A stretch of DNA of 64,000 bases from Eledone cirrhosa (lineage: Eukaryota), in NCBI GenBank assembly GCA_964016885.1, contig CAXHJY010001064.1, positions 1 through 64,000 on the forward strand, read 5' to 3'. A model generated the notes under the pieces. That model made no database searches. It was not told the DNA's origin and saw only the letters and a list, made by a program, of their open reading frames with translations. The first letter of the stretch is position 1, and every line of letters begins with the position of its first letter. Shown here piece by piece: positions 12,750 through 56,987 of the stretch. Made by a program: the position numbers and the translations under genes.

Positions 12750-13365
12750 GCCTGTAAGGTGTTAGTGCTGGAGTCATGATAAAAAACATCCATTCCACTA
12801 TGTGAGGAGGTAGTGCTGGTGCAATTTCAAAAAGCACCTAGTCTCCCCAGTAGGGTGGTAGTGACAGAATTACAACAACAAAAACATCCAGTCAACCCTG
12901 TAAGGTGGTATGGCTGGTGCCACAATAAAAAGCACCTAGTTCACCCTGTAAGGTGGAACTGACAAAGTCACATTAAAAAGTATCCAGCCTACACTGTAAG
13001 ATGGGAGTGCTGGTGCCATGATAAAAAGCAACCAGTCTACCCTATGAAGTCATAGTGATGGTGCTAGGATAAAAAGTACCTAGTCCATCCTGTAAGGTGA
13101 GAGTGCTGATGCTTTGATAAAATGATCCCAGTACATGCTGTAAAGTGGTTAGTGTTAAGAAGGGAATTTAGCCATAGAAACCAAGCCAAAAATGAAGCGT
13201 GTATGAGCAAGATATAGTCGTCTGGTCAGTTTGCATGTTGTAAAAAGCAACTAAAAGGGTTAGTAACAGGAAGGGCATCTGGCTATAAAATATTACCTCA
13301 CAAAGTCCTGCCCAACCCATGCCATCATGGAAAATTCGATGTAGAACCAATGATGATGGTGATAT
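12750..13365 (+). mobile_element. RTE 3'-UTR-derived fragment with ~8-9 x 48-bp units
   Basis: Units of aaaaagcacc(c/t)agtccaccctgtaaggtgg...tggtgcc, then aagggaatttagccatagaaacc...gatgatggtgat tail. Confidence 0.8.
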
Positions 13366-18280: not shown

Positions 18281-18309
18281 CCACAAATAAATAATAATAA
18301 CAATACTTG

Positions 18310-18545
18310 TGTCTCCAACACAACCCCTTCACAGGTTGGGCTGGTTGCTTTTGTTGTGTCGATGTCATGCCCACTTTACAGGGTGGGCTGGGCATTTATT
18401 GTCATGTCATACTACCAGCCTGACCACTCCACTGAGTGAACCAAACACCTTCTGTTGTACCACCAATATGACTACCTTTCAGTGGAAGCTGGGTGCTGTT
18501 TGCCATGGCACCAAAACGACCACTTCACAGTTTGGACTGGGGGCT
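18310..18545 (-). repeat. 48-bp RTE-UTR unit array, ~5 decayed units
   Basis: Reverse complements of aaagca.ccagccca.cctgtaaagtgg. Confidence 0.7.
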
Positions 18546-18698
18546 TGGGTGGTGAGGTGTATGGGGATTGGGGACAAATATCTAAGGACGTCGGTGTGGG
18601 GTGGAGTGTTAGGATGTGGGAGGTGTATGGAAGGGGGAAGTTGAGGAAAGTGGTGCATACTAGATGTATGCTTCAACCCACGCACATGGGAAAACAGA

Positions 18699-19450
18699 TA
18701 ATAATAATAATAATAATATTAATAATAATAATAATAATGAAATTATTGTGTAAAGTGCTCAGGTGCACTACAACTCGTCAATATAGTACATAGAATAATA
18801 CACAAATGTCAGGGAAGTACATGTGTGTATGTGTTAGCTGTTCTGTTGGCGGATCTCGGGAAGCATGGAGGCCTTAAAGGATGCAGTGTCTCGACAGCTA
18901 ACAACTGATGCAGGTAGTTTGTTCCATGCTTCAGCAACTCTGAACGTGAAAAAATGTTTCCGAAAGTCATGGGAACTGTGCTGTTTTCTTACTTTGTGGG
19001 CATGTCCACGTGTGTTAGACACATGGAAATCGAAAAGGTACTCAGGGTTGTTGTTGGCAACATGGTTAACAATTTTGTGGGTGTTTACCAAGTCAGTTGC
19101 CAGGCGTCGGAGCTTCAATGAATCCATGCCCAGGGAAGCAAGGCGCTCAGAGTATGGTAGATGCCTGATGGAGGGTATTCGCTTGGTTGCACGTCTCTGA
19201 ACAGTTTCCAGGCGGTCAATGTCCTGAGCAAGATAGGGGTTCCAGACTGGTGATGCAAATTCTAAGTGTGGTCGCACCATAGCTGTATACAGCCTTAAAT
19301 AGATATCTGGAGAGCGGCTGACAAAGGTCTTGCTGAGTGATGCTAAGACACCCTCGGCCCTCTTGACAATTTTAGAGACGTGCCTCGTCCAACGCAAATC
19401 GCTGCTGACCGTAATGCCCAGGTCACGTTCACAGGAAGCTTCTGTATAAC
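18699..19450 (-). mobile_element. 5'-truncated CR1-clade LINE
   Basis: ORF 18834-19493: ERDLGI...LYTAMVRPHLEFASPVWNPY...LETVQRRATK...TRGH...RKHFFTFRVAEAWNKLP, followed by an (ATT)n tail. Confidence 0.9.
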
Positions 19451-20177: not shown

Positions 20178-20690
20178 TGTGGTTGTGTTGGTAGCATGGT
20201 AAAAGGCACCCAGACCATTCTATAAAGTGGTCATGTTGGTGACATGACAAAAAGCACCCACTCCACCCTGTAAAGTGGTTGTATGTGACACATCAGAAAG
20301 CACCCAGCCCACCATGTAAAGTGGCCGTGTTGGTGACACAAGGGAAAGCATCCAGTCCACCCTGTAAAGAGGTTGTGTTGGTGACACAACAAAAAGCACC
20401 CAGCCCACCATGTAATGTGCTTGTACTGGTGACTCAATGAAAAAGTGCCCAGTCCATCCTGTAACGTGTTCATTTTGATGCCAGGACAAAAAGCACCCAG
20501 TCCATTCTGTAAATGCGGTTGGAATTAGGAAGGGCATCCAGTTATAGAAACCAAGTCAGAAAACAGTTCTATATGAACAAGAGACATGGTCACCTGCTCT
20601 AATTTGTCTCACAATGGGACAACTCGCCTAACTCATGCTAGTGTGGAAAATGGGCATTAAACGATGGTGATGATGATAATGATAATGATA
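20178..20690 (+). mobile_element. RTE 3'-UTR-derived fragment with 7 x 48-bp units and (GAT)n tail
   Basis: Units followed by taggaagggcatccagttatagaaacc...catgctagtgtggaaaatgggcattaaacgatggtgatgat. Confidence 0.85.
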
Positions 20691-20814
20691 AATGTATGAG
20701 TGTGAGGAAAACCATAATCAAGTTCATGGGAGAGGGAGAAAAGATATCAATCACAGTTAGAACAGCAAAGAACCAGTTGTGTAAATATAAAAGTTGATCT
20801 TTTGAAAAAATGTA

Positions 20815-21240: not shown

Positions 21241-21780
21241 CATTGGACATATGTATAATAAACATACATTAGTTTTGCTATGAGTATTTCAAGCTGTCAT
21301 CATATCACAGCTACCTGAACATTTGTGTGTGTGTGTGTAAGAGAGAGAGAGAGAGAGAGAGAGTGTGTGTGTGTCTGTGCATGTTTTTGCAATGACACTA
21401 TTTAAGCAAACTATGACATTTGTTTATGTCCCACATAAACAATGTGTCAAACAGTTTAGCAGTAAATACTATATTTAAGTTATGGGTTGGTGTCAGAAAG
21501 GGCATCAAGCCCTAGAATACTACAAGCATGGAAAAGTGAATCAGGCCCACAAGGAGATATAGTTTTCTGTTCTAAGTGGTAAGGCTATGGTATTAATTCA
21601 TACATGTTTCATTTCATTAGCTTTTGTTTTACATTATAGTCAGGAGGGCGGTAAAGTCATTGGAACATTTGATAGAAAGCTGAGCCATATTTATTCTGGT
21701 TCATGGCATACTGAGTTCAAATCCTATCAAGGTCAACTTTGCCTGGCAAAATAATAAAGTACTAGTTTTGTACAGGGGTC

Positions 21781-22600
21781 ATCATCATCATCATCACCAT
21801 CACCGTTTTACGTCCGTTCTTCCACGCTAGCATGGGTTAGACGGGTTGTCCTGTTGTGGGCAGTGTCTGGTCGGCTGACCATGCCTTGCTCATACAGGAA
21901 CTGATCTGGCTTGATTTCTACAGCTGGATGCCCTTCCTAACACCAACCTCATTTACAGTGAGTGCTGGGTGCTTTTTCGTGGCGCCTACACGTCCACTTT
22001 ACAGTGTGGGCTGGGTGCTTTTTTGCCGTGGCACCTCCACGACCACCTTGTGGTGGTGGGGGGGGGGGGGGGGGGGCATATTGTCTATATGCTTCAGCTT
22101 GTACCCATGGGAGGTCGGGTACTCTGTATTACTGCGTGACACCAGAGGGCATGGTCGTGTGTCATCGCTTTTGAGAGGTGTAATTGGGTAAGGTCGGCTT
22201 TTATCACCTCATCCCAGGTCATCTTGGGTCTCCCCACTCCGCGGTTTCCATCAACTTCTAGTGCTCTGCACCTTTTTATGCAGCTGTCATCCTTCATACA
22301 CATCATATGTCCATACCAGCGCAACCGCCTCTCCTGGACACAGCATTTGATTCCTCTTATGCTCAGTCTCTCTCTCAATTCATTTATGCTTTGTCGTTCA
22401 CGTATATTACTGTTACACATCCATCGGAGCATGCAGGCTTCGTTTCTCTCTAATCTACGTAAGTCTTCCACCTTCAACGCCCAGGTCTCACTACCATGCA
22501 ACATTGTTGTTCGGATACACGCATCATACAGTCTGCCTTTCATTCTGAGGGAGAAGCCTTTTGCAGCTAGCAGTGGTAGTAGTTCCCTAAACTTCTTCCA
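21781..22600 (-). mobile_element. 5'-truncated RTE LINE (PHD-RTE family), 3' end
   Basis: ORF 22094-22543 KGRLYDACIRTTMLHGSETWAL...RRLRWYGH...GRPK, then a 3' UTR with two units and a (GAT)n tail. Confidence 0.9.
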
Positions 22601-25966: not shown

Positions 25967-26570
25967 ATCATCATCATCATCCTCATCATTATTTTACATC
26001 TGTTGTTCAATGCTTGCATGGGTTGAATGGGTTTTTTTTTCAGCACAACATCTCTCCACTTATCACGTTCATTCGACAGCTACTCTGTAAGCTTCAGCAA
26101 ATTGAGATCAGCTCTCATCCCCTCCGCCCAGGTCTTTCTTGATTTTCCTCTACTGCATCTTCCTTCCACTGGAATTTCTTGGCATTTTTCACCCAGTGAA
26201 CACTATCCATACACATAACATATCCATGCCAGTGCAATCTTCTCTCTTGTACATCCATCGAAGCTTGGTTGCTTCATTTCTCTCCAGCTGTCGGATATCA
26301 TCTGTGTTCACTGCCCATATCTCACTACCATGCAGTATCACACTTTGCACATAGATGTCATACAGCTGTCCTTTCATTCATAAGGAGAAACCTTTTGTCA
26401 TCATCAGAGGAAGAAGCTCCTTAAACTTTTTCCATCCCGTCCTTATTCTTGTTACTATACTCTCAGAGCACCCTCTTCCACTGCTAATTATATCACTGTA
26501 ACATGATAACTACACATCAATCATCTAGGTAGCAAGGCTATCAACCATTTCTATGGGTCCTTCCTAGAGT
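25967..26570 (-). pseudogene. Decayed RTE 3' half
   Basis: KGQLYDIYVQSVILHGSEIWAV...LERNEA and a (GAT)n tail. Confidence 0.8.
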
Positions 26571-27234
26571 TGTAAAAGGTTTATATCAGTGACACTTTTA
26601 CTATCAATTGTCCCTGAAAATGTCCTTTATATCTATTCTGTTCTTGCCATATTATAATATATCATGGTCATGATTTGTTTTCAAATCTAATAATACACAC
26701 TGAGAAACAAAGATTAAGTCTGATTGGCATCCTATTGTGTATAAAAATAGCCTGTGTATGTTTATATGTATGCCAGGGTATTACATTCAGCACAATGACA
26801 CACCATGTGACAACAGCCCAGTTATCACTGCTGGGAGGGTGCAGCTGTCACTGGCATACACACATGCACACACACACACACATAGCACAATCACAGTTAC
26901 ACATACACATATGCACACACACACACAGCACAACCAGTTACACATATACACATAGCAAAATCACAGTTACATATACACAATAACACATACACAACGCAAC
27001 ACAACAACAGCTATACATGCACACACACAAAACAACCACATAATTACACACACACCAACACAACCACCCATGCAGCAACACACACACACACACACACACT
27101 CACACACAATTACACATACACCAACATAACCACACATACAACCATATACACACATACAGTAACACTCATACACATATGCACACACACAACATAATCAGTT
27201 ATACATACACACATACAAAACAAACGCTCAGTTA

Positions 27235-27510
27235 CACATACACACACTCATACCCACACAACACAACTATACACTTACACATACACACACTCATACCCAC
27301 ACAACACAACTATACACTTACACATACACACACTCATACCCACACAACACAACTATACACTTACACATACACACACTCATACCCACACAACACAACTATG
27401 CACTTACACATACACACACTCATACCCACACAACACAACTATACACTTACACACACTCACACCCACACAACACAACTATACACTTACACACACTCACACC
27501 CACACAATAC
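27235..27510. repeat. ~42-bp CA-rich minisatellite, ~6 copies
   Basis: acacactcatacccacacaacacaactatacacttacacat repeated. Confidence 0.9.
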
Positions 27511-27784
27511 AACCATACAGCTACACATATATGCTTGAATAAATCTGTCGCTCTGTTTAACACCTCTTACCTAGACCCTCGCGGCTTTTAGGGAGCTCCA
27601 CCTTGTTGTAAGCATTCAGATTAAGTCTACCTTTTGAATTTACACCTTCATCCTTCCTTCTCTCCCACAAGTCACCTTTAAAAGGGTCATAGGCAGTGCC
27701 ATTCCTACTCCATCAATGAAATAAAAAATAAGAAAAATACAGCTCATCCTTGTGGAACTGGTTAACTGCAGGACATATTAATAA

Positions 27785-29280: not shown

Positions 29281-29286
29281 GATATA

Positions 29287-31665
29287 TCATCATCATCATC
29301 GTTTAACGTCCATTTTCCACGCTAGTATGGGTTAGCATGGGTTGTCCCACTTGAGGCAAGGTTGGTCGGGTGACCGTGTCTCGCTCATATAGGACTATCT
29401 GGCAGGTTTTCTACGGCTGGATGCCCTTCCTAACACCAACCACATTTACAGTGTGGAACTGGGAACTTTTTACCATGGTACCTACACGGCCACATTACAG
29501 CGTGGACTGTGTGTGTTTTTTTCTCGTGACACCTACACGATCTCGATCTCATTATCTCGTGCTGTTGGCGGGAGTGGGAGGATAGGGTAGGGGTAGTGGG
29601 ATTGGGGTGTATATTTGGTTAGGAGGTGCCTACTGACTGTAGGTTTCGCTTTGTACATAGGCAAGGAGAGTCTTCTGTATTACTGTGTAGCGCCAAAGAT
29701 CTCGGTCCAGTGACATTGTCTTAGAGAGGTGCAAGTGTGTAAGGTCAGAATTTATCAAATTGTCCCAGGTTTTTCTGGGTCTACCTACTCCGTAACTACC
29801 ATCAATTTTGATCACCCTGCACTTTTTTATACAGCTGTCATCTTTCATGCGCATCACGTGGCCATACCAACGTAGTCTTCTCTCGAGTAAACAGCATCTG
29901 ATCCCTCTTATTCCTAATTTCTCACTTAGTTCATTTATGCTTTGCCGTTCACATATATTACTATTACACATCCAACGGAGCATGCATGCTTCGTTCCTTT
30001 CCAGTCTACGCAGGTCCTCTGCACGCAATGCCCAAGTCTCACTGCAATGTAGCATTGCTGTTCGTATACAAGCATCATGCAATCTGCCTTTCATTTTTAT
30101 GGAGGCACATGGCTTAGTGGTTAGAGCATTGGCCTTGCAATCGACCTTGCATCAGACCGGGTGATGTGTTGTTTCCTTGAGCAAATATTTTATTTCACAT
30201 TGCTCCAGTTTACTCAGCTGTAGAAATGAGATGATAGGGACTGGGGTCCATATCATTCCACTGCAAAGTGGTCATGGAGGTGCCACGTCAAAAAAGCACC
30301 CAGCATTCACTGTAAATGAGGTTGGTGTTAGGAAGGGCATCCAGCTGTAGAAATCAAGCCAGAATCAGTTCCTGTCCCACCCTTGCAAGCAGGGAAAAGC
30401 GGACGTGAAAATGATGATGAAAATGATAATGAAACCTTTTGTGGCCAACAGCGGTATAAGCTCTCTGAACTTTTTCCATCCCGTTCTGACTCTGGCTACT
30501 GTACTTTCAGAACACCCTCCACTACTGCTGATTTCGTCACCCAGGTAACGGAAAGTGCCTACTATTTCTATAGAGCCATCTGGGCAATAGAAGGGGCTAG
30601 TATCCTGTGGACACTTGCTACCTATTGCACCTGAGCATCGGCCACATATAAAGTCTACGTTCTTAGATAGTTTACTTGTGATCCCACTACATCTTTTATG
30701 TACCCATACTTTGCATTTGGGACATAAAATTGAATTTCTGCCTACTCCTTTCCTACACACTGAGCAAGGCCATTTCCCTGAGGGTACCTGTGCCTTGTTT
30801 TCCTTTCTACAAACTAGGACTTTAGTCTTAGACAAGTTAACTTTAAGGCCTTTTGATTCTAGGCCATGCTTCCATGTTTGGAATTTCTTTTCTAGTTCAG
30901 CCATTGATTCAGCTATGAGCGTTAGATCATCTGCGTATAGGAGTTCCCATGGGCAGCCGGTCTTGAACTCCTCTGTTATAGCCTGAAGGGCAATAATAAA
31001 TAGGAAGGGGCTAAGGACAGAGCCTTGGTGAACACCAACTTTTACACTAAATTCTTCACAATATTCATTGTTAATTCTAACCTTGCTGACTGTTTCTTTA
31101 TACATGGCTTGTATAGCTCTCACAAGCCATTCATCAACACCTAGGTTTCTAAGAGCCCACCAGATAATGGAGCGGGGGACTCTGTCAAAGGCTTTTTCCA
31201 GGTCTACAAAAGCTAAGTAGAGGGGTTTACTTTTAGCTAGGTACTTCTCTTGTAGTTGTCGTACAAGGAAAAGCGCGTCTGTGGTACTTTTACCTGACAC
31301 AAACCCAAACTGCATTTCATTTAGATCAATTTGCTCTCTGATTAGTTGCGCTATAACTCTTTCTGTGACCTTCATGACCTGGTCAACTAACTTAATGCCT
31401 CTATAGTTTCCTCTATCTAGAGCATCTCCTTTACCCTTGTAGCAGTTAATGATGATGCTGCTACGCCAGTCTTTTGGTATGACCCCATTCTGTATTACTT
31501 GGTTAACTATACAGGTGACCATAGTATGTCCCACCATTCCAGATGCCTTCAACATCTCAGCAACTATCTCCGAAGCTCCAGCTGCCTTGCCTGTCTTCAT
31601 ATCTTTGACTGCCTTACTTATTATACTACCTTTAACTTGCACCGCTGATCCTTCTATTGGATCGA
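29287..31665 (-). mobile_element. 5'-truncated PHD-RTE LINE, split by a SINE
   Basis: ORF 30365-31642 (NYRGIKL, FVDLEKAFD, HQGSVLSP, YADD, PHD finger, FRYLG) and ORF 29630-30094, then 3' UTR and (GAT)n tail. Confidence 0.95.
30100..30432 (+). mobile_element. SINE family A with RTE-derived 3' tail
   Basis: tRNA-like head and core, one 48-bp unit, taggaagggcatccagctgtagaaa, GAT tail. Confidence 0.85.
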
Positions 31666-31960
31666 CATATATATATATTAGATTTGGTGCTCTGAAATAG
31701 CGATGTTACATAAATGTATGCATAGTATATTTGCCAATATACCGTATGTGTAATTAAAAACATTTTGAAGACTTTACGCTATCATTTTTAAATGTCACTT
31801 ACTTCTTTTTGGCGAAAATATACACACATATATATATATATGCACATATATATATACACACACAAAAATATATATATATATATATTTTAACATTTCAGAC
31901 AAAGCCTTATATAAAACATAGAATTATGAATGACATTCAGCCTGCTAAATACTACAGCTA

Positions 31961-37672: not shown

Positions 37673-38917
37673 TTAAGTCATGATCATCATTATGGTGGTA
37701 TATAAATAGAAAACTTATTTGCTGTAGTTATCACAAATATAATTTTATTTTGTTTATAAACAGGCTGATTGATTTTCCAATTGCAGGTGTTATATGATAA
37801 ATTATACATACATATATATACAATATACACAACGGGTATTCAGAAGATACATTACATACCTGAATGATTATAACAAATATAAATATATATATATATTGCC
37901 AAACAAAGGGTCGAAAGGAGTCTTCAAGTAGGTCAAATGCATCCAGTACACTGTGTAAAGTGGTTAGTGACCATGGTTTGCTCATATAATTCGTTTTTAG
38001 CTTGGTTTTCTATGGCTTGATGCTCTTCCTAATGTCAACTACATTTCAACATGGACTAGAAACTATTTTAGTGACACCAGCACTACTACGTTCAGAGTTG
38101 TCAGGGTGCTTTTTGTCATGACAGCAATACAACCACCTTGCAGAGAGGATTAGTTACTATTGTTGTGGCATCAGCATGACAACCTTACAGAGTGGACTGG
38201 GTGAACTGGGTGATGTGCATATGTGTATTTGTCTCTCTCTTCTCTTTGCATATTGACATTGCAAGAGGTGATATTTGTTTACATTCTGTATAAAGAGAAA
38301 TTTCGCTATTCAGTAGTAAGATGTGCAAAGATCTGTATTTAACTTCTAAATTTTGCTCTCAAAGTACTGGTCAGTCCAAGGCTATAGTAGACAACACTTT
38401 CTCAAGGTGCTACGCAGTAGAATCAAAACTGAAACCACATAGATGTCAAGCAAACTTCTTTACCAAACAGCCATGCTAGTACTATTTAGTGACAAATAAC
38501 CTTCTGAATGATATTAGTTACTCTTTGATAGTTGGGTTATATGTGAGCTATTTCTAGCATCATTTCATACCTGTCACATTGTCCATGATATACAAATATT
38601 TGCTTGGTTGGTTGATCCATGCATGCATGTAATTTTTACACCACGCTGGATTGGTAAGGATTTATTCCATTTACCAACAGGTAAATATTATTTTTATACT
38701 TAAAAAAAAGCCCTCTGAAGAAATTATATTCTTCAGCATTGTCTGTTTTATGTATTCAAATGGTCAATGCTTTTTCTTGACAAATGAAACCACAATAAGG
38801 CTAAGATTATTGGTAAAGGTGTCTTATTTAGGAGGTTTACTAGGAATCTGCCTGTAGATAACTTTGTAAAATTTATACTATATGTATATCATAATCATCA
38901 TCATCATCATCACTATT

Positions 38918-43621: not shown

Positions 43622-43900
43622 TTCTGTAAAGTGGTTGTGTTAGTGCCATGCCAAAAAGCACCCAGTCCACACTATAAAGTGGTCATTTTGGTGCCAAGAT
43701 AAAAGGCACCCAGTACACAATGTAAATGTGGTTGGCATTAGGAAGGGCATCCAGCTGTAGAAAACAAGCCAGAAATGGTTCTGTATGAGCAAGACACAGT
43801 CATCTGGTCTGACTTGTTTCACAACAGGACAACCCATCTAACCCATGCTAGCATAGAAAATGCACATTAAACAGTGATAACGATGATGATGATGATGATG
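43622..43900 (+). mobile_element. RTE 3' end fragment (2-3 units and GAT tail)
   Basis: aaaagcacccagtccacactataaagtgg...taggaagggcatccagctgtagaaa...gatgatgat. Confidence 0.85.
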
Positions 43901-44130: not shown

Positions 44131-44490
44131 GTCATCACCCCTTCCTTCCTCAATCATCTCTAGTGTGTGACATCGTCACCCCTTCCTTCCTCAGTCATCT
44201 CTGGTGTGTGACATTATTACCCCTTCCTTCCTCAATCATCTCTGATGTGTGACATTATTACCCCTTCCTTCCTCAATCATCTCTGGTGTGTGACATCGTC
44301 ACCCCTTCCTTCCTTGGTCATCTCAAGTATTTGATATCATCACCCCTTCCTTCCCCAATCATCTCTAGTGTGTGACATTGTTACCCTTTCCTCTCTCAAT
44401 CATCTCTAGTGTGTGACATTGTCACCCCTTCCTTCCTCAATCATCTCTAGTGTGTGACATCGTCACCCCTTCCTCCCTCTAGTGTGTGAT
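44131..44490. repeat. 41-bp minisatellite, ~8.5 copies
   Basis: cgtcaccccttccttcctcaatcatctctagtgtgtgacat repeated. Confidence 0.95.
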
Positions 44491-46347
44491 GGAAGGATGG
44501 ACAGAAGTTGCTCAAATTTATATAAGCATGCTTCATGTTGACAGCCTTTCTTTTTAATATACGGAGAGACATATCATTTCTTAATAAGACGTGACTGTTG
44601 GACTTGCTAGAAATAACAACTAAATTTACTTTAAACCAAACCCCACAGTCTTAAAAAAGGAATTGATACATTATATAATCTAGCCCTACATATATCATGT
44701 CTGCCAAAATGTAGGATGGCCAAGAGGCTGGAACACCTTTCATCATAGGTCCACTCTATTAGAGCTGACTAGGGAATAACAACAACAAAGGAAACAGTTT
44801 TCTGAATGTGTTTCTCTCTCGCTCCCTTTCTCTCTAGAATGGACCTATGATGAACACCTTTCATCATAGGTCCACTCTATTAGAGCTGACTAGGGAACAA
44901 CAACAACAGCAGCAACAACAAAGGAAACAGTTTTCTGAATGAGTTTCTCTGTAGCTGCTATACTATCATTACAATCCTTCAACTATCTCCAGGAAGACTA
45001 ACTAGATCACCTAGACAACAGAAAATATCTACTAGATTCTGGTGTGTCAACTGACCATTTTTCATTGACTTCATTTCATTGTTGTTCCTACTTTGACTAT
45101 TTCCATACATCACATGTCCTCATTTTAATTTTGAAACAAATAGAAAAAAAGCAAAGAGCAAAAAAACAAACAAAACAAAAAAAAAAGTGTCTAGTCAGTC
45201 TGTAAGTAAACTGTTCAAGTTATACAAATATAAGGATGGCATCAGATCCTGTCTGTATTTGATACCATCAATCTTATTTTACTACTCTTTCACCACTCCA
45301 CCCCCCTCTCTACCATGTTACTCTTTATTGACATCCACCACACTATATCTCTCACTTACAATCAACCATATTTATTGTTATTCATCATCTACTATCTCTT
45401 ACCACTTCCCATCTTTATTGTTAATCTTTAATTTTTTCACACACACACACATACTCTCTCGCTATCTCTAATGCGCATTACTCTTTACTCCATTACTTTT
45501 TGTTCATATATATATCTCTCTTCCTCTTTTCTATCACTCTGTCACTCCCACATCATCCATCATGTCACTCATGTGTTTTTAATCAATATCCTTACCAGAA
45601 ATCAACATGTAGCTGTCTGCCATTGCCATTGCCACTGTCCTACGAGTCTCTTGCACCGTATCATTCTGTTTCACCCAGATTTAATATCTTATTTTTCCAT
45701 TCCTGCATGGCTAAGACAGTTTGTCAGGTCAGGTGACCAGCATCTTGCTGATATGGATCTGTATTTTGACTTGGATGCTCTTCCTAACACCAACCAGGTT
45801 ATAGTGTAGACTGGGTGCTTTTTATCATGGCACCAAAACAGCTATCTCACGGGGTGGACTGGGTGTTTTCTTGTCATGTCACCAATATGACCAGATGAGG
45901 TCTGTGGAAGAATGAGACCTACAAAGACATGGGATGAAGAGGTGAAGTCTGAACTTAGGCAGTTGAACCTCACCTCAGAGATGCCAAAAGACTATGATAA
46001 CTGGTGACATGTGGTATGAAAAATGCACTCAGGACACCCTGTAAGGTGGTTGCTTATAAGAAGGGCATCCAGCTGTAGAAACCATATCAAAAAGGATTGA
46101 AAAGACTTCAGTTGTGTCAAGAGTACAGTAACTTCTCTAGTGTTGGTGATATGATAAAATGCACCCTGTACGCTCTCCTGAATGATGGAATGTAGTTCAG
46201 TTAGATGTGGCTCAGACACATCTGAGAGATCAGTGGTTTCGATTAAGAACTGACCTAATCTGTAACGACTCATCTAATTCCCAAGCAGGGAAAATGACTG
46301 TTAAAATTATGATGATAATATATATACATCTATATATACACACATTT

Positions 46348-48328: not shown

Positions 48329-50428
48329 GCTACTAAATGAGGAGAATAAATGGGAGAAAGACAGTCTCCCCCATATCGACCCAATAGAGGGACCAGCAGT
48401 GTTAGTCGAGGGGAGTATAATAAGTAAGGCAATCAAGGATATGAAGACAGGTAAGGCGGCTGGGCCTTCGGAAATAGTTGCTGAGATGCTGAAGGCATCT
48501 GGCACGGTGGGACACACCATGGTCACTCGCATAGTTAACCATGTCGTACAGAATGGGGTTGTTCCGAAGGAATGGCATAGCAGCATCATCGTTAACTGTT
48601 ATAAGGGTAAAGGAGACGCCCTAGATAGGAGTAACTATAGAGGCATTAAATTAATCGACCAGGTCATGAAGGTCACGGAAAAAGTAATAGCGCAACTAAT
48701 CAGAGAGAGAATTGACCTAGATGAAATGCAGTTCGGGTTTGTGTCAGGCAAAAGTACCACAGACGCTCTTTTCATAGTACGACAACTACAGGAGAAGTTC
48801 CTAGCTAAAGGTAAACCCCTCTACTTAGCTTTTGTCGACTTGGAGAAAGCCTTCGACAGAGTCCCCCGCTCCATTATCTGGTGGGCTCTTAGAAAACTAG
48901 GCGTTGACGAATGGCTTGTGAAGGCTATACAAGCCATGTATAAAGAAACAGTCAGCAAGGTTAGAATTAACAACGAATATAGTGAAGAGTTTAGCGTAAA
49001 AGTTGGCGTCCATCAGGGCTCTGTTCTCAGCCCCCTACTATTTATTATTGCCCTTCAGGCTATAACAGAGGAGTTCAAGACAGGCTGCCCATGGGAACTC
49101 CTATACGCAGACGACCTGACACTCATAGCGGAATCAATGGCCGAGCTAGAGAAGAAATTCCAAACATGGAAGCACGGCCTAGAGTCAAAAGGACTTAAAA
49201 TTAACCTGGCTAAGACCAAAGTTCTAGTTTGTAGGAAAGAAAACAAGGCGGCGGTCCCTTCTGGGAAATGGTCGTGCTCGGTGTGTAGGAAAGGCGTAGG
49301 TAGAAACTCCATTTTATGTCCTAAATGCAAAGTATGGGTGCATAAAAGATGTAGTGGGATCACAGGTAAGCTAACTAAGAACATAGATTTTACATGTGGC
49401 CGGTGTTCTGGTGCAATAAGTAGCAGCAAGTGCCCACAAAATACTAGCTCTTTCAATTGCGCAGAGGGTTCTATAGAAATAGTGGACAGCTTCCGTTACC
49501 TGGGCGATAAAATCAGCAGTGGGGGAGGGTGCTCTGAAAGTACTGTAGCTAGAGTCAGAACTGGTTGGAAAAAGTTCAGAGAGCTTATACCACTATTAGC
49601 TGCTAAAGGGTTCTCCCTAAAAATGAAAGGCAGGTTGTACGATGCCTGCATACGAACAGCAATGTTGCATGGCAGTGAGACCTGGGCATTGTGTGCAGAG
49701 GATATACGCAGACTAGAGAGGAACGAAGCTTGCATGCTCCGCTGGATGTGTAACAGTAATATACGTGAACGGCAAAGCATAAACGAACTAAGGAAAAAAT
49801 TAGAGATAAGAGGGATCAGATGTTGTTTACTCGAGAGAAGGCTACGTTGGTATGGACACGTGATGCGCATGAAAGTCGATAGCTGTATAACAAAGTGCAG
49901 GGCAATAAAGATAGACGGTAGCCACGGAATAGGCAGACCTAGAAAAACCTGGGACGAGCTGATAAACTCCGACCTCACACACTTACACCTCTCCAAGACA
50001 ATGTCACTGGACCGAGACCTTTGGCGGTACTCAGTAACAGAGAAGACCCGCCTTGCCAGTAGGCATCTCTAACAAAATACACCCCGTCCCGCCACCACCC
50101 CCACCCCATCCACACCACCCCGTTCTATGTAAAGTTATGTTGGTGCCGCGCCATCCAGGCCGAAACAAATGAGATCGTGTAGGTGTCACGACAAAAAAAC
50201 ACACAGTCCACGCTGTAATGTGGCCGTGTAGGCAACACGGTAAAAACCTCCCAGACCCACACTGTAAATGTGGTTGGTGTTAGGAAGGGCATCCAACTGT
50301 AGAAAACCTGCCAGACAGTCCTATGCGAGCAAGACAATCACTCTTGCCTCAAGTGGGACTACCCCCGTCCAAACCCATGCAAGCGTGGAACACGGACGTT
50401 AAACGTTGATGATGATGATGATGATGAT
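48329..50428 (+). mobile_element. 5'-truncated PHD-RTE LINE (RT frame open 48330-50072, 3' UTR, GAT tail)
   Basis: All RT motifs including YADD. The listed ORF start at 48102 merely reads through a (TA)n tract. Confidence 0.95.
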
Positions 50429-50557
50429 TACATATATATATATATATATCATATATATATATATTACATATATATATATATATATATTACATATATATAT
50501 ATATTACATATATATATATATATTACATATATATATATATATTACATATTATATATG

Positions 50558-50591
<34 letters not shown>

Positions 50592-50644
50592 CATATATAT
50601 ATATATATTACATATATATATATCATATATATATATATATATAT

Positions 50645-50679
<35 letters not shown>

Positions 50680-50682
<3 letters not shown>

Positions 50683-53600
50683 TGGGGTGGGTCTGCTAGA
50701 TTCATTGAGGGTAAAAAACGATGTTATAAGCTTTTCTGGGTGGGAAACGACGATGGGCTGGGTGGAGTAGGAATCATGGTAGCAGAAAAGTGGGCAGATA
50801 AGATAATAGACGTAAATAGAGTGAATGACAGAATAATTAAAATACGACTTGTCCTCAATAGAACTACGGTGACAGTAATATCTGCGTACGCACCCCAATC
50901 CGGACTGCCCGGCACTATAAAAGACAGATTCTATGAGACACTGATGCTAACTACCTCCCAAATATCCGACAGTGACTATATAATTATTGCAGGCGACCTA
51001 AATGGTCACGTTGGACAACATTGTGACGGCTACGTACGACGAAATCCATGGAGGCTATGGGTTTGGTACTAGAAATGAGGAAGGCTCCAGAATCCTGGAA
51101 TTCTGTGATGCAAATAACCTAACTATCTGTAACACTAACTTCAAAAAACGTGACAATCACCTGATCACCTATAGATCCGGGAAACACACAAGCCAGGTAG
51201 ATTATATCCTTACCAGAAGACGTGACAGAGTGTCTGTTGTAAACACTAAATCCCTCCCCCATGAAGAATGCACCTCGCAACATAGACTGATAATTAGCGA
51301 CCTCATAGTCAGGACAAGACGTACTCGACAGCAGAAGAGGACTATCCTCAGGAGAAAAATATGAAAGCTAAAGGACCCCACAGCCAGGAATAAATTTCAA
51401 AGCATATTACTTGATGCTTTCGACAGTAAGGAAGAACATTTAGAGTCGGACAATATAGAGGGAGAGTGGGAATTTCTGAAAGCAAACCTGCTGTTGGCGA
51501 CAGACGAAGTCTGTGGCTGGAGCAGGCCTGTAGGCAGGAGGAGAGTAACATGGTGGTGGAACAGTAAGGTGGAGGGGTCAATTAAGGCCAAAAAGCAAGC
51601 TTGGAAAGTATGGCGGGATGGGGGAAGTAGAGAAGACTATCAAGTGGCCAGGAGGGAAGCTAGGAGACAAGTGTACTTAGCAAGAAGGGAAGCTGAGGAA
51701 AGAAAGTTCAAGCATGTTCTACAACGCGATGACCAAAAACGTGAGGTGTTCAGGATTGCTAGGCAATGCGTCAAGGAAAACCGTGATATTGTCGGGGAGA
51801 AGTGTGTACTTAACGATGATGGCATACTTGCCATCACCGACGCTGATAAGAAGGTAGCTTGGAAGTGTCACTATGAAAGGCTACTAAATGAGGAGAATAA
51901 ATGGGAGAAAGACAGTCTCCCCCATATCGACCCAATAGAGGGACCAGCAGTGTTAGTCGAGGGGAGTATAATAAGTAAGGCAATCAAGGATATGAAGACA
52001 GGTAAGGCGGCTGGGCCTTCGGAAATAGTTGCTGAGATGCTGAAGGCATCTGGCACGGTGGGACACACCATGGTCACTCGCATAGTTAACCATGTCGTAC
52101 AGAATGGGGTTGTTCCGAAGGAATGGCATAGCAGCATCATCGTTAACTGTTATAAGGGTAAAGGAGACGCCCTAGATAGGAGTAACTATAGAGGCATTAA
52201 ATTAATCGACCAGGTCATGAAGGTCACGGAAAAAGTAATAGCGCAACTAATCAGAGAGAGAATTGACCTAGATGAAATGCAGTTCGGGTTTGTGTCAGGC
52301 AAAAGTACCACAGACGCTCTTTTCATAGTACGACAACTACAGGAGAAGTTCCTAGCTAAAGGTAAACCCCTCTACTTAGCTTTTGTCGACTTGGAGAAAG
52401 CCTTCGACAGAGTCCCCCGCTCCATTATCTGGTGGGCTCTTAGAAAACTAGGCGTTGACGAATGGCTTGTGAGGGCTATACAAGCCATGTATAAAGAAAC
52501 AGTCAGCAAGGTTAGAATTAACAACGAATATAGTGAAGAGTTTAGCGTAAAAGTTGGCGTCCATCAGGGCTCTGTTCTCAGCCCCCTACTATTTATTATT
52601 GCCCTTCAGGCTATAACAGAGGAGTTCAAGACATGCTGCCCATGGGAACTCCTATACGCAGACGACCTGACACTCATAGCGGAATCAATGGCCGAGCTAG
52701 AGAAGAAATTCCAAACATGGAAGCACGGCCTAGAGTCAAAAGGACTTAAAATTAACCTGGCTAAGACCAAAGTTCTAGTTTGTAGGAAAGAAAACAAGGC
52801 GGCGGTCACTTCTGGGAAATGGTCGTGCTCGGTGTGTAGGAAAGGCGTAGGTAGAAACTCCATTTTATGTCCTAAATGCAAAGTATGGGTGCATAAAAGA
52901 TGTAGTGGGATCACAGGTAAGCTAACTAAGAACATAGATTTTACATGTGGCCGGTGTTCTGGTGCAATAAGTAGCAGCAAGTGCCCACAAAATACTAGCT
53001 CTTTCAATTGCGCAGAGGGTTCTATAGAAATAGTGGACAGCTTCCGTTACCTGGGCGATAAAATCAGCAGTGGGGGAGGGTGCTCTGAAAGTACTGTAGC
53101 TAGAGTCAGAACTGGTTGGAAAAAGTTCAGAGAGCTTATACCACTATTAGCTGCTAAAGGGTTCTCCCTAAAAATGAAAGGCAGGTTGTACGATGCCTGC
53201 ATACGAACAGCAATGTTGCATGGCAGTGAGACCTGGGCATTGTGTGCAGAGGATATACGCAGACTAGAGAGGAACGAAGCTTGCATGCTCCGCTGGATGT
53301 GTAACAGTAATATACGTGAACGGCAAAGCATAAACGAACTAAGGAAAAAATTAGAGATAAGAGGGATCAGATGTTGTTTACTCGAGAGAAGGCTACGTTG
53401 GTATGGACACGTGATGCGCATGAAAGTCGATAGCTGTATAACAAAGTGCAGGGCAATAAAGATAGACGGTAGCCACGGAATAGGCAGACCTAGAAAAACC
53501 TGGGACGAGCTGATAAACTCCGACCTCACACACTTACACCTCTCCAAGACAATGTCACTGGACCGAGACCTTTGGCGGTACTCAGTAACAGAGAAGACCC

Positions 53601-53979
53601 GCCTTGCCAGTAGGCATCTCTAACAAAATACACCCCGTCCCGCCACCACCCCCACCCCATCCACACCACCCCGTTCTATGTAAAGTTATGTTGGTGCCGC
53701 GCCATCCAGGCCGAAACAAATGAGATCGTGTAGGTGTCACGACAAAAAAACACACAGTCCACGCTGTAATGTGGCCGTGTAGGCAACACGGTAAAAACCT
53801 CCCAGACCCACACTGTAAATGTGGTTGGTGTTAGGAAGGGCATCCAACTGTAGAAAACCTGCCAGACAGTCCTATGCGAGCAAGACAATCACTCTTGCCT
53901 CAAGTGGGACTACCCCCGTCCAAACCCATGCAAGCGTGGAACACGGACGTTAAACGTTGATGATGATGATGATGATGAT
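50680..53979 (+). pseudogene. Near-full-length PHD-RTE LINE (APE endonuclease and RT) with a frameshift and a nonsense codon
   Basis: GVGI, SAYAPQ, GDLNGH, DYIL and SQHR APE motifs. A 4-bp tacg duplication at ~51031 and TGA at 51362 in the likely W position of RKI[W]KLKD. RT ORF 51494-53623. Confidence 0.95.
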
Positions 53980-54108
53980 TACATATATATATATATATAT
54001 CATATATATATATATTACATATATATATATATATATATTACATATATATATATATTACATATATATATATATATTACATATATATATATATATTACATAT
54101 TATATATG

Positions 54109-54142
<34 letters not shown>

Positions 54143-54195
54143 CATATATATATATATATTACATATATATATATCATATATATATATATATATAT

Positions 54196-54230
<35 letters not shown>

Positions 54231-54233
<3 letters not shown>

Positions 54234-54915
54234 TGGGGTGGGTCTGCTAGATTCATTGAGGGTAAAAAACGATGTTATAAGCTTTTCTGGGTGGGAAACG
54301 ACGATGGGCTGGGTGGAGTAGGAATCATGGTAGCAGAAAAGTGGGCAGATAAGATAATAGACGTAAATAGAGTGAATGACAGAATAATTAAAATACGACT
54401 TGTCCTCAATAGAACTACGGTGACAGTAATATCTGCGTACGCACCCCAATCCGGACTGCCCGGCACTATAAAAGACAGATTCTATGAGACACTGATGCTA
54501 ACTACCTCCCAAATATCCGACAGTGACTATATAATTATTGCAGGCGACCTAAATGGTCACGTTGGACAACATTGTGACGGCTACGTACGACGAAATCCAT
54601 GGAGGCTATGGGTTTGGTACTAGAAATGAGGAAGGCTCCAGAATCCTGGAATTCTGTGATGCAAATAACCTAACTATCTGTAACACTAACTTCAAAAAAC
54701 GTGACAATCACCTGATCACCTATAGATCCGGGAAACACACAAGCCAGGTAGATTATATCCTTACCAGAAGACGTGACAGAGTGTCTGTTGTAAACACTAA
54801 ATCCCTCCCCCATGAAGAATGCACCTCGCAACATAGACTGATAATTAGCGACCTCATAGTCAGGACAAGACGTACTCGACAGCAGAAGAGGACTATCCTC
54901 AGGAGAAAAATATGA
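54231..54915 (+). pseudogene. Duplicated APE endonuclease segment of PHD-RTE, 3'-truncated
   Basis: Appears identical to 50680-51364, including the frameshift. Confidence 0.95.
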
Positions 54916-56955
54916 GCTTCTTCTCCATCTCAGGCTGGATCCTGTTAAGAATCATCCTGTTGAGGGTCTTTGCCACAAGTGACGTCAGTGAGATCCCCGG
55001 TAGTTGTTGGTGTTAGAGAGATCTCCCTTCTTTGACACTGGGACGATGTTACTGATCCTCCACTGATTCGGGGCAACTCCTTTCTCCAGTGCCCCGTTAC
55101 AGAACCCCAGGATGATATCATCAAAATCACACCTCTTCATCACCTCTGATGCCACTCCATCTTCTCCATGAGCCTTGCCCTCCTTGATCCTCTTCTTGGC
55201 TCTCTGAAGCTCCTCTCTGGTGAAGGACTCTGTCTCAACATCCAGTTCCTCAAACAGCTGCCTGATCTCCCCAGTGCTCTGGGCTGTGGAGGGTGGCTCT
55301 CCTAGTAGGGTCCTAAAATGGTCTAGCCATTTCCTCTTCCTATCCTCGGGCCCTGTTCCCTGGATCTGACTCGACACCTTCTCTTCCTCCCTGTGATCTC
55401 GTTGATGATCATCCAGCTCTCCTTACATCCAGATCTGTCAACCGCTCTCTCCACACTTCTGATCTTCTCTATCAGTGCCTCCTCTCTGACCTCAGTGTAA
55501 GCGGTACAGAGCTCTTCCCTCATCACCTCCACAGTCTCCATCCTCTCCTCTGTAGGATCAGCATAGAATTGATCCCTGGCAGCTTTCAGGTGTTCTCTGG
55601 CTGCACACACTTTTGGGTTTGCAGAGCTGACGTGCTTCCCTTTGTTCTTTTTCCTCGGCACCAGGGTTTCACTTGCTTCCGCCACTGCATTGGTGAAGTG
55701 CCCGTACCTCCTCGTCACACTCTCCTTGGTCCATCCAATCTCTCTCTCCTCTGACTCTCCACACAGAGCACTAAACCTGTTTCTCACTTCCACTGTGAAC
55801 CTCTCCTGTAGCCTATCATCTTCCTTGAAAGCTCCCCAGTCATAGATTGTTCTCCGGGGCTGAGCCTTGCTCTTTCTTAAGCTCACGCGGACCTCACTCA
55901 TAACAAGCCGGTGGTCACTACCCAGTGTACTGAAATAGCAGTATGGTTCCGTGTTCAGAACACTATTCCGCCACTTTTTCCTCACCAGAATGAAATCAAT
56001 CTGGGACTTGGACAGGTGCATATCTGAGATGTAGGTCCACATCTTCCCCAGATTCTTCCTAAACCCTAGGTTGGTCGCCATCAAGTTCGCCTCCAGCAGG
56101 GTGTCTCTCAGTAGTCTTCCATTTCGGTTGGTGTTGTTATGGAAGTACCAGCAAGGATCTTCACTGCCCTCCTTACTCAGATGTTCATTGAAGTCCCCCA
56201 AAACAAGCAGGATATTGTGTGCCTGAGTAGTGTTGACAGCTCTACACACCTCCTCATGGAACTCTTCTGCACTCACATCACTGTCCCCCTCGGTTGGACT
56301 ATAGGCTGAGATGACTGTCAGTCTTGGGTTTCCATTGAAGGTCACCCTCAACACTCGCGGGGAGATAGGCATTATTTCCCTCACCAACAGATTGGTTTTT
56401 GTACTGAACACAAACCCACTCCTCCTACTGCAGCATTTGTTGTGTTCTTCACTGCCGATGTAGTGATGAGCTGGCTCTTCCTCCCGATCATCACACTCCT
56501 CACGGGCTCATCGTGTAGAATCCTGTGTTCTTGGATCGCAAGTATCTGTATACCACTCTCCTCGAACAGATGTCCCAAATCCTCTCTCTTCTCCAGCGTC
56601 CGAATAGTCCTCACATTCAAAGTGCCCATTTTGATGGTTCTTCTGCAGGACAAAACTGCATTCTTTATATTTGTCTCAGAGACAGCTGATCCATCATCCA
56701 CTGGCCCTCTCTGTGGCTCTAAGCCAGCAGAGTCATAACGACCAGGCTGCTCCTTGACAGTGTAATTAGGCGCTCTAACCCTAGTGCTGTTAGATCGACT
56801 CTCCATATTTCTTTTCAATGGCTGACAATACCTTACCGGCGCCACTCGAATAAGGTAGTTATGACAACTAAGGGGTAACTCCACATTCCCCACATCTCCT
56901 GAACTCCCGAACTGGAGCCTTGCCACTGGATGTAGTTTAATGTCATACCCAGGAC

Positions 56956-56956
<1 letters not shown>
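54916..56956 (-). mobile_element. Second RTE-clade LINE: 5' UTR, APE and RT N-terminus, 3'-truncated, two frameshifts
   Basis: GTLNVRT, AIQEHR, SAYSPT, GDFN, IDFIL, SDHR and KKGDLSNTNNYRG in ORFs 56381-56926, 55323-56411 and 54985-55377. Confidence 0.92.

Positions 56957-56987
<31 letters not shown>

What the first reader, a model, noticed from the sequence alone, without database searches (positions are those of the whole stretch)
20178..20520. Variable-copy arrays of a covarying ~48-nt RNA structure (hairpin plus H-type pseudoknot) in an RTE 3' UTR
Seen: a ~48-nt unit occurs once in the SINE at 30100, about twice in RT-linked elements (~21960-22050 minus, ~50180-50280), about 5 times at 18310, 7 times here and 8-9 times at 12750. 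Where the 3' end survives, the array sits just before the conserved RTE tail. The variable half keeps pairing through compensatory changes: GTCATGT/ACATGAC, GTTGTGT/ACACAAC, GTCGTGG/CCACGGC, CCGTGT/ACACGG, TCGTG/CACGA. Its (T/A)GGTG loop is complementary to the CACC that follows an A5-6 linker, which is H-type pseudoknot geometry. A second hairpin (CCAC/GTGG, CCACC/GGTGG, CTCA/TGAG) presents a near-constant CTGTAA loop. Established: stringent LINEs recognise a 3' stem-loop shared with partner SINEs. Inference: this is a multimerised structured RNA module (RT-binding site, nuclease block or unknown ribozyme) under structural selection. I do not recognise it as a described motif.
Basis: partly seen in the sequence, partly recalled or inferred. 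Interest (0 to 1): 0.8.

Follow-up and report, generated by a model that had tools for sequence, protein, structure and literature searches.

The report
Retrotransposon 5' leader repeated at tail
This is an old, decaying copy of a jumping gene's 3' end in which a short piece of that gene family's 5' leader, likely a folded RNA that helps start translation, is repeated seven times; most of the apparent 'compensatory' changes are what ordinary CpG mutation gives, but the motif next to the repeat does show paired changes across distant relatives.

Summary
The 7-unit, 48-nt array is real, and the unit recurs at about 13 places in the window. Young copies carry CpG in both stem arms, and its two lead 'compensatory' pairs are the products of CpG decay (12 doubly decayed units: 6 Watson-Crick, 4 G-U, 2 mismatched; odds ratio 1.0). 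Covariation over 24 units is not above shuffles, and only 2 of the 7 units here keep a perfect stem. The module is 5' UTR-derived. In 9 of 9 related full-length RTEs the adjoining 'anchor' motif lies in the 5' UTR, 26-34 nt before the ORF's first in-frame ATG, and two of them carry a structurally matching unit just upstream. Their 3' ends lack both. Window copies keep the ATG at +28 to +33, followed by the RTE tail, so the cassette is a miniature internally deleted RTE appended behind the ORF. The anchor covaries well (0/500 shuffles) and has no Rfam match. Likely role: cap-independent translation or ribosome positioning in the 5' UTR (inferred). The array is probably a passenger expansion.

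The parts
20178..20518 (+). Array of seven 48-nt units (stem S1 with TGGTG loop, A-run, GCACCCAG box, hairpin H3); 5'-truncated and decayed
20519..20550 (+). Anchor motif: conserved RTE 5' UTR element with two stacked helices; covaries across relatives
   Evidence: present in published hagfish RTE 5' UTRs
20573..20575 (+). ATG 33 nt after the anchor; likely the relic start codon of the donor RTE ORF
   Evidence: compared
20620..20691 (+). RTE 3' tail stem-loop and (ATG)n-type microsatellite; the likely RT-recognition end
12751..13350 (+). Older array of eight units of another sub-family, then an anchor, a second 5' UTR-like stretch with a second anchor, and the tail
18307..18546 (-). About five units behind a C-rich tract like the one that follows the ORF stop in RT-linked copies; 3' end missing
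21779..22600 (-). 5'-truncated RTE: RT C-terminus, C-tract, two units (21949-22043), anchor, ATG at +32, tail
29285..31669 (-). RTE copy with two units (29442-29541), anchor, ATG at +30 and tail; its ORF is interrupted by the SINE
30100..30432 (+). SINE inserted into that RTE: tRNA-like head (by eye), one unit (30271-30319), anchor, tail; the ATG stretch is deleted
   Evidence: ARAGORN finds no tRNA gene here
38007..38203 (-). Three decayed units plus a part, then an anchor
43625..43899 (+). 5'-truncated copy with two units, anchor, ATG at +32 and tail; closest window relative of the finding (79% over the downstream segment)
45680..45891 (-). Two units, anchor, shortened tail
48330..50428 (+). 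Young RTE copy: ORF to 50072, C-tract, one relic and two intact units (50174-50271), anchor, ATG at +28, tail; 335 nt from stop to microsatellite
50680..53979 (+). Near-identical tandem copy (3 differences in 2097 nt) with endonuclease, RT and PHD finger; units at 53725-53822

Best explanation
The array is a 5'-truncated, neutrally decaying retrotransposed copy of an RTE-family 3' end that carries a cassette derived from an RTE 5' UTR (repeated units, anchor, ATG, tail); in its native 5' position that leader likely folds to load or position the ribosome on the start codon, and the seven-fold repeat is probably a passenger expansion. Shown: (1) unit and anchor lie in the 5' UTR of related full-length RTEs and are absent from their 3' ends; (2) the first in-frame ATG lies 26-34 nt after the anchor in 9 of 9 such elements, and 7 of 11 window copies keep an ATG at +28 to +33; (3) the anchor helices and the hairpin in front of it keep their pairing under sequence change; (4) CpG sites in these elements mutate far faster than other sites. 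Inferred: an internal deletion fused a 5' UTR plus start codon to a 3' tail (a bipartite mini-element). That cassette then replaced the tail of a coding RTE by template switch or recombination and supplied the 3' half of a tRNA-headed SINE. Units multiplied in master copies by slippage between repeated H3 hairpins. Untested: cap-independent translation as the function; the pseudoknot as a real fold. Confidence is about 0.9 for the origin and architecture and about 0.5 for the translation role.
For: [quoted passage not shown] ATG offsets 28, 28, 34, 30, 33, 28, 32, 26, 30. 3' ends: 31 of 40 loci show a microsatellite within 260 nt of the protein match, none with the anchor before it. Unit homologues: an HMM trained on window units has its best hit among 79 loci at L015 321-353 (E=0.17); a covariance model from window units hits L015 315-365, ending at the anchor (E=0.6, third of 8 hits); a sequence-free pseudoknot descriptor hits L015 and L017 49-51 nt before the anchor; L015 shares a 100/98 clade with the window RTs. 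Against window units, S1 changes T-A to A-T at one non-CpG pair in both L015 and L017 and keeps pairing. Anchor: 96.6% of cells paired against 85.4%, score 0.418 against 0.183, 0/500 shuffles, on 17 rows with one window row; RNAalifold gave the same two helices by itself. H3: combined p=4e-4 over 16 external elements. CpG decay: 7 of 10 CpG sites against 7 of 87 other sites carry variants at 4% or more in run X1; tail CpGs 20/64 against 12/112; doubly decayed units give the table [[4,4],[2,2]].
Against: No experiment supports translation; fixed spacing to the ATG could also reflect a DNA promoter element or a protein-binding site. Three of the eight relatives (L011, L015, L017) have an out-of-frame ATG a few bases earlier. 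The unit homologues rest on two loci with weak scores, and 2 descriptor hits near 31 anchors is not above the 1.5 expected in 230-nt windows; only their position and loop sequence make them persuasive. Part of the anchor's double changes come from a one-base register shift in L003, L017 and L087, the inner-helix change is 2-3 events, and the shuffle control ignores relatedness. Only 5 of 16 H3 hairpins reach p<0.05 singly. The two units of the young copy are only 68% alike outside CpG columns yet both keep S1 and H3, and young plus external S1 stems score 0.294 against 0.181 (20/500); selection on two units in active masters is therefore possible. The 5' UTR of this family is not in the window. 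PMC9476566 (passages) reports low methylation on octopus transposons, so CpG decay was not a given; it was measured here.
Confidence: 0.55

Rival explanations
1. One reading: the units are RT-binding modules that were multimerised in the 3' UTR under structural selection to raise retrotransposition.
For: Units are kept in the young RT-linked copies and the SINE; both young units keep S1 and H3 despite 68% identity; suggestive S1 covariation in young plus external units (20/500).
Against: Related RTEs end without units (31 of 40 loci), as does another RTE family in this window. The tail itself is the shared, paired 3' structure. There is no covariation over 24 units, and the 12750 sub-family carries S1 mismatches in all 6 parsed units. 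The youngest copies have the fewest units.
Confidence: 0.12
2. The unit is a compact pseudoknot that blocks exonucleases, first protecting an uncapped 5' end and now stacked in front of the tail (by analogy with repeated nuclease-resistant folds in viral UTRs; analogy recalled).
For: H-type geometry with an A-rich linker in young units and in L015 and L017; RTE RNAs can lose their cap by ribozyme cleavage (PMC8501958, passages).
Against: The pseudoknot is broken or shifted in young terminal units; there is no Rfam match; it does not explain the fixed ATG spacing.
Confidence: 0.1
3. The unit never had a selected structure: it is a neutral minisatellite grown from a chance palindrome beside the anchor.
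For: Covariation, folding energy and CpG outcomes in the window fit neutrality; within-array identity is 75% against 71% between arrays.
Against: H3 pairs in distant relatives with different sequence; L015 and L017 keep S1 with changed pairs at the same place.
Confidence: 0.1
4. Anchor and units act as DNA (internal promoter or transcription-factor sites), as PMC5786205 speculates for conserved RTE 5' UTR pieces.
For: High sequence conservation; retained in SINEs; multimerisation is common for promoter monomers (own knowledge).
Against: Double-sided changes keep the anchor helices paired, and G-U pairs are tolerated on the sense strand, which points to RNA.
Confidence: 0.08
5. The unit is an unknown self-cleaving ribozyme. 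A weaker form holds that H3 is a dead remnant of a twister P2 stem.
For: In the published RTE-2_EBu the slot 5' of the anchor looks by eye like a twister ribozyme (consensus recalled, not run); twister variants head the RTE Perere-3 (PMC8501958); several H3 loops share a short TAA motif.
Against: No Rfam ribozyme hit in the window or in 32 loci. An active cutter upstream of the tail of a coding element or inside a SINE would sever the RNA. There is no invariant catalytic core.
Confidence: 0.05

Closest known systems
Bipartite RTE-derived non-autonomous elements and SINEs (Kojima 2018 PMC5786205, parts 1-4 of 5 and part 1 of 15 of its supplement read; Kojima 2020 PMC7245038, passages and supplement hits)
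   Same: [quoted passage not shown]
   Different: Here the cassette also forms the 3' UTR of coding RTE copies, and its upstream unit is repeated up to 8 times. In the parts I read these papers give no RNA structure or start-codon spacing for the segment.
Ribozyme-led, cap-independent RTE leaders (twister variants in Perere-3, PMC8501958 passages; HDV-like ribozymes proposed as IRES in R2, L1Tc and RTE, PMC6765202 passages)
   Same: A structured 5' UTR that supports translation of an uncapped retrotransposon RNA.
   Different: Those papers credit the ribozyme fold. The anchor here lies downstream of that slot, is constant while the slot changes, and has no ribozyme match.
Stringent LINE 3' tail stem-loop (ZfL2/UnaL2 type; PMC4176376, search listing only)
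   Same: The window's tail is such a shared LINE-SINE end.
   Different: The 48-nt unit lies more than 100 nt upstream of the tail and is missing from relatives' 3' ends.
Alu domain/SRP9-14 ribosome binding as a SINE strategy (PMC7245038 passages citing Ahl 2015)
   Same: A folded, retained domain that may bring a non-coding retroposon to the ribosome.
   Different: Unrelated sequence; ribosome binding is only a hypothesis here.

Membership tests
RTE-clade non-LTR retrotransposon (host element) | Single ORF with APE endonuclease followed by RT | tested here: met
   PF14529 and PF00078 in the window copy, whose frame is broken; single ORFs of 986-1137 aa in eight relatives
RTE-clade non-LTR retrotransposon (host element) | 3' end in a short tandem repeat behind a conserved tail | tested here: met
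RTE-clade non-LTR retrotransposon (host element) | RT groups with named RTE references in a tree | not tested
   The tree held no named references; the clade is inferred from domain order and the 5' UTR motif shared with published RTE-2/4_EBu
Bipartite RTE-derived element | 5' UTR-derived segment joined directly to the 3' tail | tested here: met
   Anchor in relatives' 5' UTR; anchor, ATG, about 50 nt and tail in window copies
Bipartite RTE-derived element | Own 5' end (LINE 5' terminus or Pol III head) and target-site duplication for the copy at 20178 | tested here: inconclusive
   The copy starts inside a unit; no clear duplication in the flanks; it could be a truncated LINE or a non-autonomous copy
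LINE 3' RT-recognition stem-loop | Located at the 3' terminus and shared by all family relatives | tested here: not met
   The unit is absent from relatives' 3' ends and from the family at 26035-26617
H-type pseudoknot | Loop of stem 1 complementary to a strand downstream of stem 1 | tested here: met
   87.5% of cells paired over 24 units; descriptor hits
H-type pseudoknot | Covariation in both stems | tested here: inconclusive
   One double change in the four core loop pairs; S1 20/500 in young plus external units
H-type pseudoknot | Folds as such in solution | not testable with these tools
   Needs SHAPE/DMS with compensatory mutants
Known ribozymes and other Rfam RNAs | Match to an Rfam covariance model | tested here: not met
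   No hit over units or anchor at E<=1 in the window, in 18 loci or in 14 loci
IRES-like leader | Fixed spacing between structure and start codon | tested here: met
   26-34 nt in 9 of 9 relatives
IRES-like leader | Drives cap-independent initiation | not testable with these tools
   Needs reporter and toeprint assays

The most novel reading that the evidence does not exclude
RTE retrotransposons across animals share an undescribed compact RNA structure (hairpin or pseudoknot unit plus a two-helix anchor) that recruits the ribosome about 30 nt before the AUG. RTE-dependent SINEs keep it as their counterpart of the Alu domain, to sit on ribosomes beside newly made RT. This lineage moved the whole leader behind its own stop codon and multimerised the pseudoknot to strengthen that capture.
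Probability: 0.25. Interest if true: 0.75.

Novelty: new variant of a known kind. Interest (0 to 1): 0.42.

Why it matters
Why RTE-dependent SINEs keep a piece of the LINE 5' UTR is an open question (PMC5786205 offers only a guess). The covarying anchor with fixed spacing to the AUG gives a small, testable RNA candidate, and RTE UTRs are being optimised empirically for gene writing (PMC13708176, passages). A coding LINE that ends in a miniature copy of its own clade's leader is an unusual architecture. The case also shows a pitfall: a CpG-containing stem yields false compensatory pairs in half of the double decays. The array at 20178 itself is a dead copy with no sign of a host function.

Tried and rejected
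No whole genome is held, so units could not be collected genome-wide. Viral contigs: three patterns gave 0 matches and the protein search gave no relative. Rfam: nothing relevant. Earlier scan findings: none. Sequencing runs: no RNA holder listed. Folding z-scores near zero for the array, two young 3' ends and L015 (+0.51, +0.04, -0.73, -0.08). The model search in five MAG genomes gave two weak hits that are not units on inspection. A third anchor helix (columns 6-8 with 15-17), which would make the anchor a pseudoknot, has no double change and 82% pairing and was dropped. An 18-codon mini-ORF after the relic ATG in three copies is within chance, so I do not claim it. Upstream-slot types do not form clades on the RT tree. 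A pistol ribozyme was considered from recall and rejected because the unit has no P2 strand between the linker and the loop-pairing strand. Nine answered paper searches found no description of the unit or of the anchor's structure. The library lacks most subscription journals, Repbase and the original octopus SINE paper of 1994; figure-only alignments such as SFigS4 of PMC5786205 were not readable and may bear on novelty.

Full report
Setting. The window is AT-rich, microsatellite-rich animal DNA. It is probably an octopus: a close named homologue of its RT is from Octopus bimaculoides (P0027, 60% identity). This is an inference. No whole genome was available.

Observation. The array is real. 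TRF gives period 48, 6.5 copies, 75% matches at 20201-20513. An iterated HMM gives seven units here and 42 hits in the window at E<=1, against 0-1 in each of 5 shuffles. The layout is H3-(S1, A-run, box, H3)n, then a conserved 32-nt 'anchor' (core GGAAGGGCATCC; 15 matches against 0.1 expected), an ATG, about 50 nt, the tail and a microsatellite. The array at 20178 has no RT next to it. It starts inside a unit and is tied to the RTE family by its downstream segment (74-79% identity to RT-linked copies). Copy number is partly confounded by 5' truncation, but elements with a defined upstream border do differ (1, 2, about 5). In run X1, some contigs skip or go back by roughly one unit (tables 5 and 5c, weak support).

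The claimed covariation. The young RT-linked copies have CpG in both arms of S1. Of 32 units parsed, 12 have both CpGs decayed: 6 Watson-Crick, 4 G-U, 2 mismatched; the 2x2 table is [[4,4],[2,2]], odds ratio 1.0. CpG hypermutability was measured. In run X1, 7 of 10 CpG positions but 7 of 87 other positions of 50174-50270 carry a variant at 4% or more (contig depth, positions read from the table by hand). In tail matches 20 of 64 CpG sites against 12 of 112 others have changed (the 16 rows include the two near-identical young copies and at least two doubtful matches). The window's CpG observed/expected ratio is 0.45. Over 24 units (those I could align whole; deleted or partial units were left out) the covariation score is 0.203 against 0.177 (45/500), cells paired are 77.1% against 74.6% (11/500), and RNAalifold finds no consensus pair. 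In this array only units 2 and 5 have perfect S1 stems. The copy behaves like a neutrally decaying insertion.

Where the module comes from. A scan of metagenome contigs with an alignment of 30 related proteins kept 79 loci of 463 confirmed stretches. Of 40 loci whose match reaches the C-terminal part, 31 show a terminal microsatellite within 260 nt (median 66), none with the anchor in between. The young window copy has 335 nt between stop and microsatellite. Another RTE family in the window also runs straight into the tail. The anchor instead lies in the 5' UTR of all eight near-full-length relatives in which I found it and of L080; the first in-frame ATG follows at 26-34 nt in 9 of 9. [quoted passage not shown] SINE-like copies in MAG contigs show the same anchor-plus-tail layout. 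Seven of 11 window copies keep an ATG at +28 to +33. The cassette is therefore a miniature internally deleted RTE of the bipartite kind described in PMC5786205, here appended behind the ORF of coding copies. The second anchor at 13260-13290 suggests that such tail additions recur.

Is the unit structured? Two relatives, L015 and L017, have the unit's anatomy directly before the anchor. The scores are weak (HMM E=0.17 and 2.6; covariance model E=0.6 for L015 with two chance-looking hits above it), and two descriptor hits near 31 anchors are not many. The position and loop sequence match, and L015 is in the same well-supported clade as the window RTs. With these two and the seven young or SINE units, the four core S1 pairs are kept in 34 of 36 cells, with a non-CpG T-A to A-T change, and the score is 0.294 against 0.181 (20/500): suggestive only. 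H3 is better supported: a hairpin ends at the anchor in sequences that differ widely (combined p=4e-4, 5 of 16 singly below 0.05). The pseudoknot is possible but not shown: its pairs barely vary and are broken or shifted in the young terminal units. The anchor has the clearest signal: two helices, 96.6% paired, five pairs with double changes, 0/500 shuffles, also found by RNAalifold. Caveats: I proposed the fold after seeing the rows, some changes come from a register shift, and relatedness is not corrected.

Mechanism. Shown: origin in the 5' UTR, fixed spacing to ATG, covarying anchor, CpG-driven decay of the arrays. Inferred: RTE RNAs can be cut from host transcripts by 5' ribozymes and still be translated (PMC8501958, PMC6765202, passages). 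A constant fold about 30 nt before AUG, downstream of an exchangeable slot (unit A in L015, L017 and here; other folds in L002, L003, L005, L011, L080; a twister-like stretch in RTE-2_EBu by eye), fits an element that loads or positions the ribosome. Its retention in SINEs would then parallel the Alu domain. In the 3' UTR the units are most simply passengers that expanded by slippage in master copies. L005 shows an independent tandem duplication in the same slot. Selection on one or two units in active masters is not excluded.

Comparison and verdict. The bipartite layout and the anchor sequence are known. I found no description of the 48-nt unit, of its arrays, of a coding RTE ending in such a cassette, or of the anchor's structure and spacing (searches; Rfam), within the limits of the library. 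Verdict: new variant of a known kind. Interest 0.42.

Noticed in passing
window 48330-54915: Two and a half head-to-tail RTE copies separated by (AT)n; 3 differences in 2097 nt and the same 5' break point, so a recent segmental duplication or an assembly artefact. The protein has a PHD finger after the RT.
   Followed up: partly
window 54916-56960 (minus): A different LINE with an endonuclease and an apparently intact 5' end next to (AT)n interrupts the third RTE copy.
   Followed up: no
L002 1-88, L011 120-212, L085 upstream of 959 (minus), window 13232-13262: A second conserved fold fills the slot 5' of the anchor; it is also in the published RTE-4_EBu. No Rfam match. Candidate unrecognised structured RNA or ribozyme at LINE 5' ends.
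   Followed up: partly
L005 95-198: Tandem duplicate of another two-hairpin unit just before the anchor in a 5' UTR; single copies in L003 and L080.
   Followed up: partly
published RTE-2_EBu 5' end (PMC7245038 supplement 2): The stretch before the anchor looks by eye like a twister ribozyme starting at its cleavage site (consensus recalled, not run); H3 might be its remnant.
   Followed up: no
L080-L090: Bacterial and archaeal MAG contigs hold animal RTE and SINE copies, which points to contamination of these genome records.
   Followed up: partly
window 49900-50430: Half or more of the sampled words are held in 14 runs from 11 coded organisms; 4 runs were laid and all cover the anchor region. 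Shared ancestry or horizontal transfer not resolved.
   Followed up: partly
window 26035-26617 (minus): A second, older RTE family whose ORF reads straight into the tail, without units or anchor.
   Followed up: yes
window 18676-18740: An RTE-like tail with (ATA)n on the plus strand abuts the minus-strand array at 18307-18546; the element borders are unclear.
   Followed up: no
window 44135-44479 and 27232-27529: Unrelated tandem arrays of 41 nt (8.4 copies) and 43 nt (about 7 copies).
   Followed up: no
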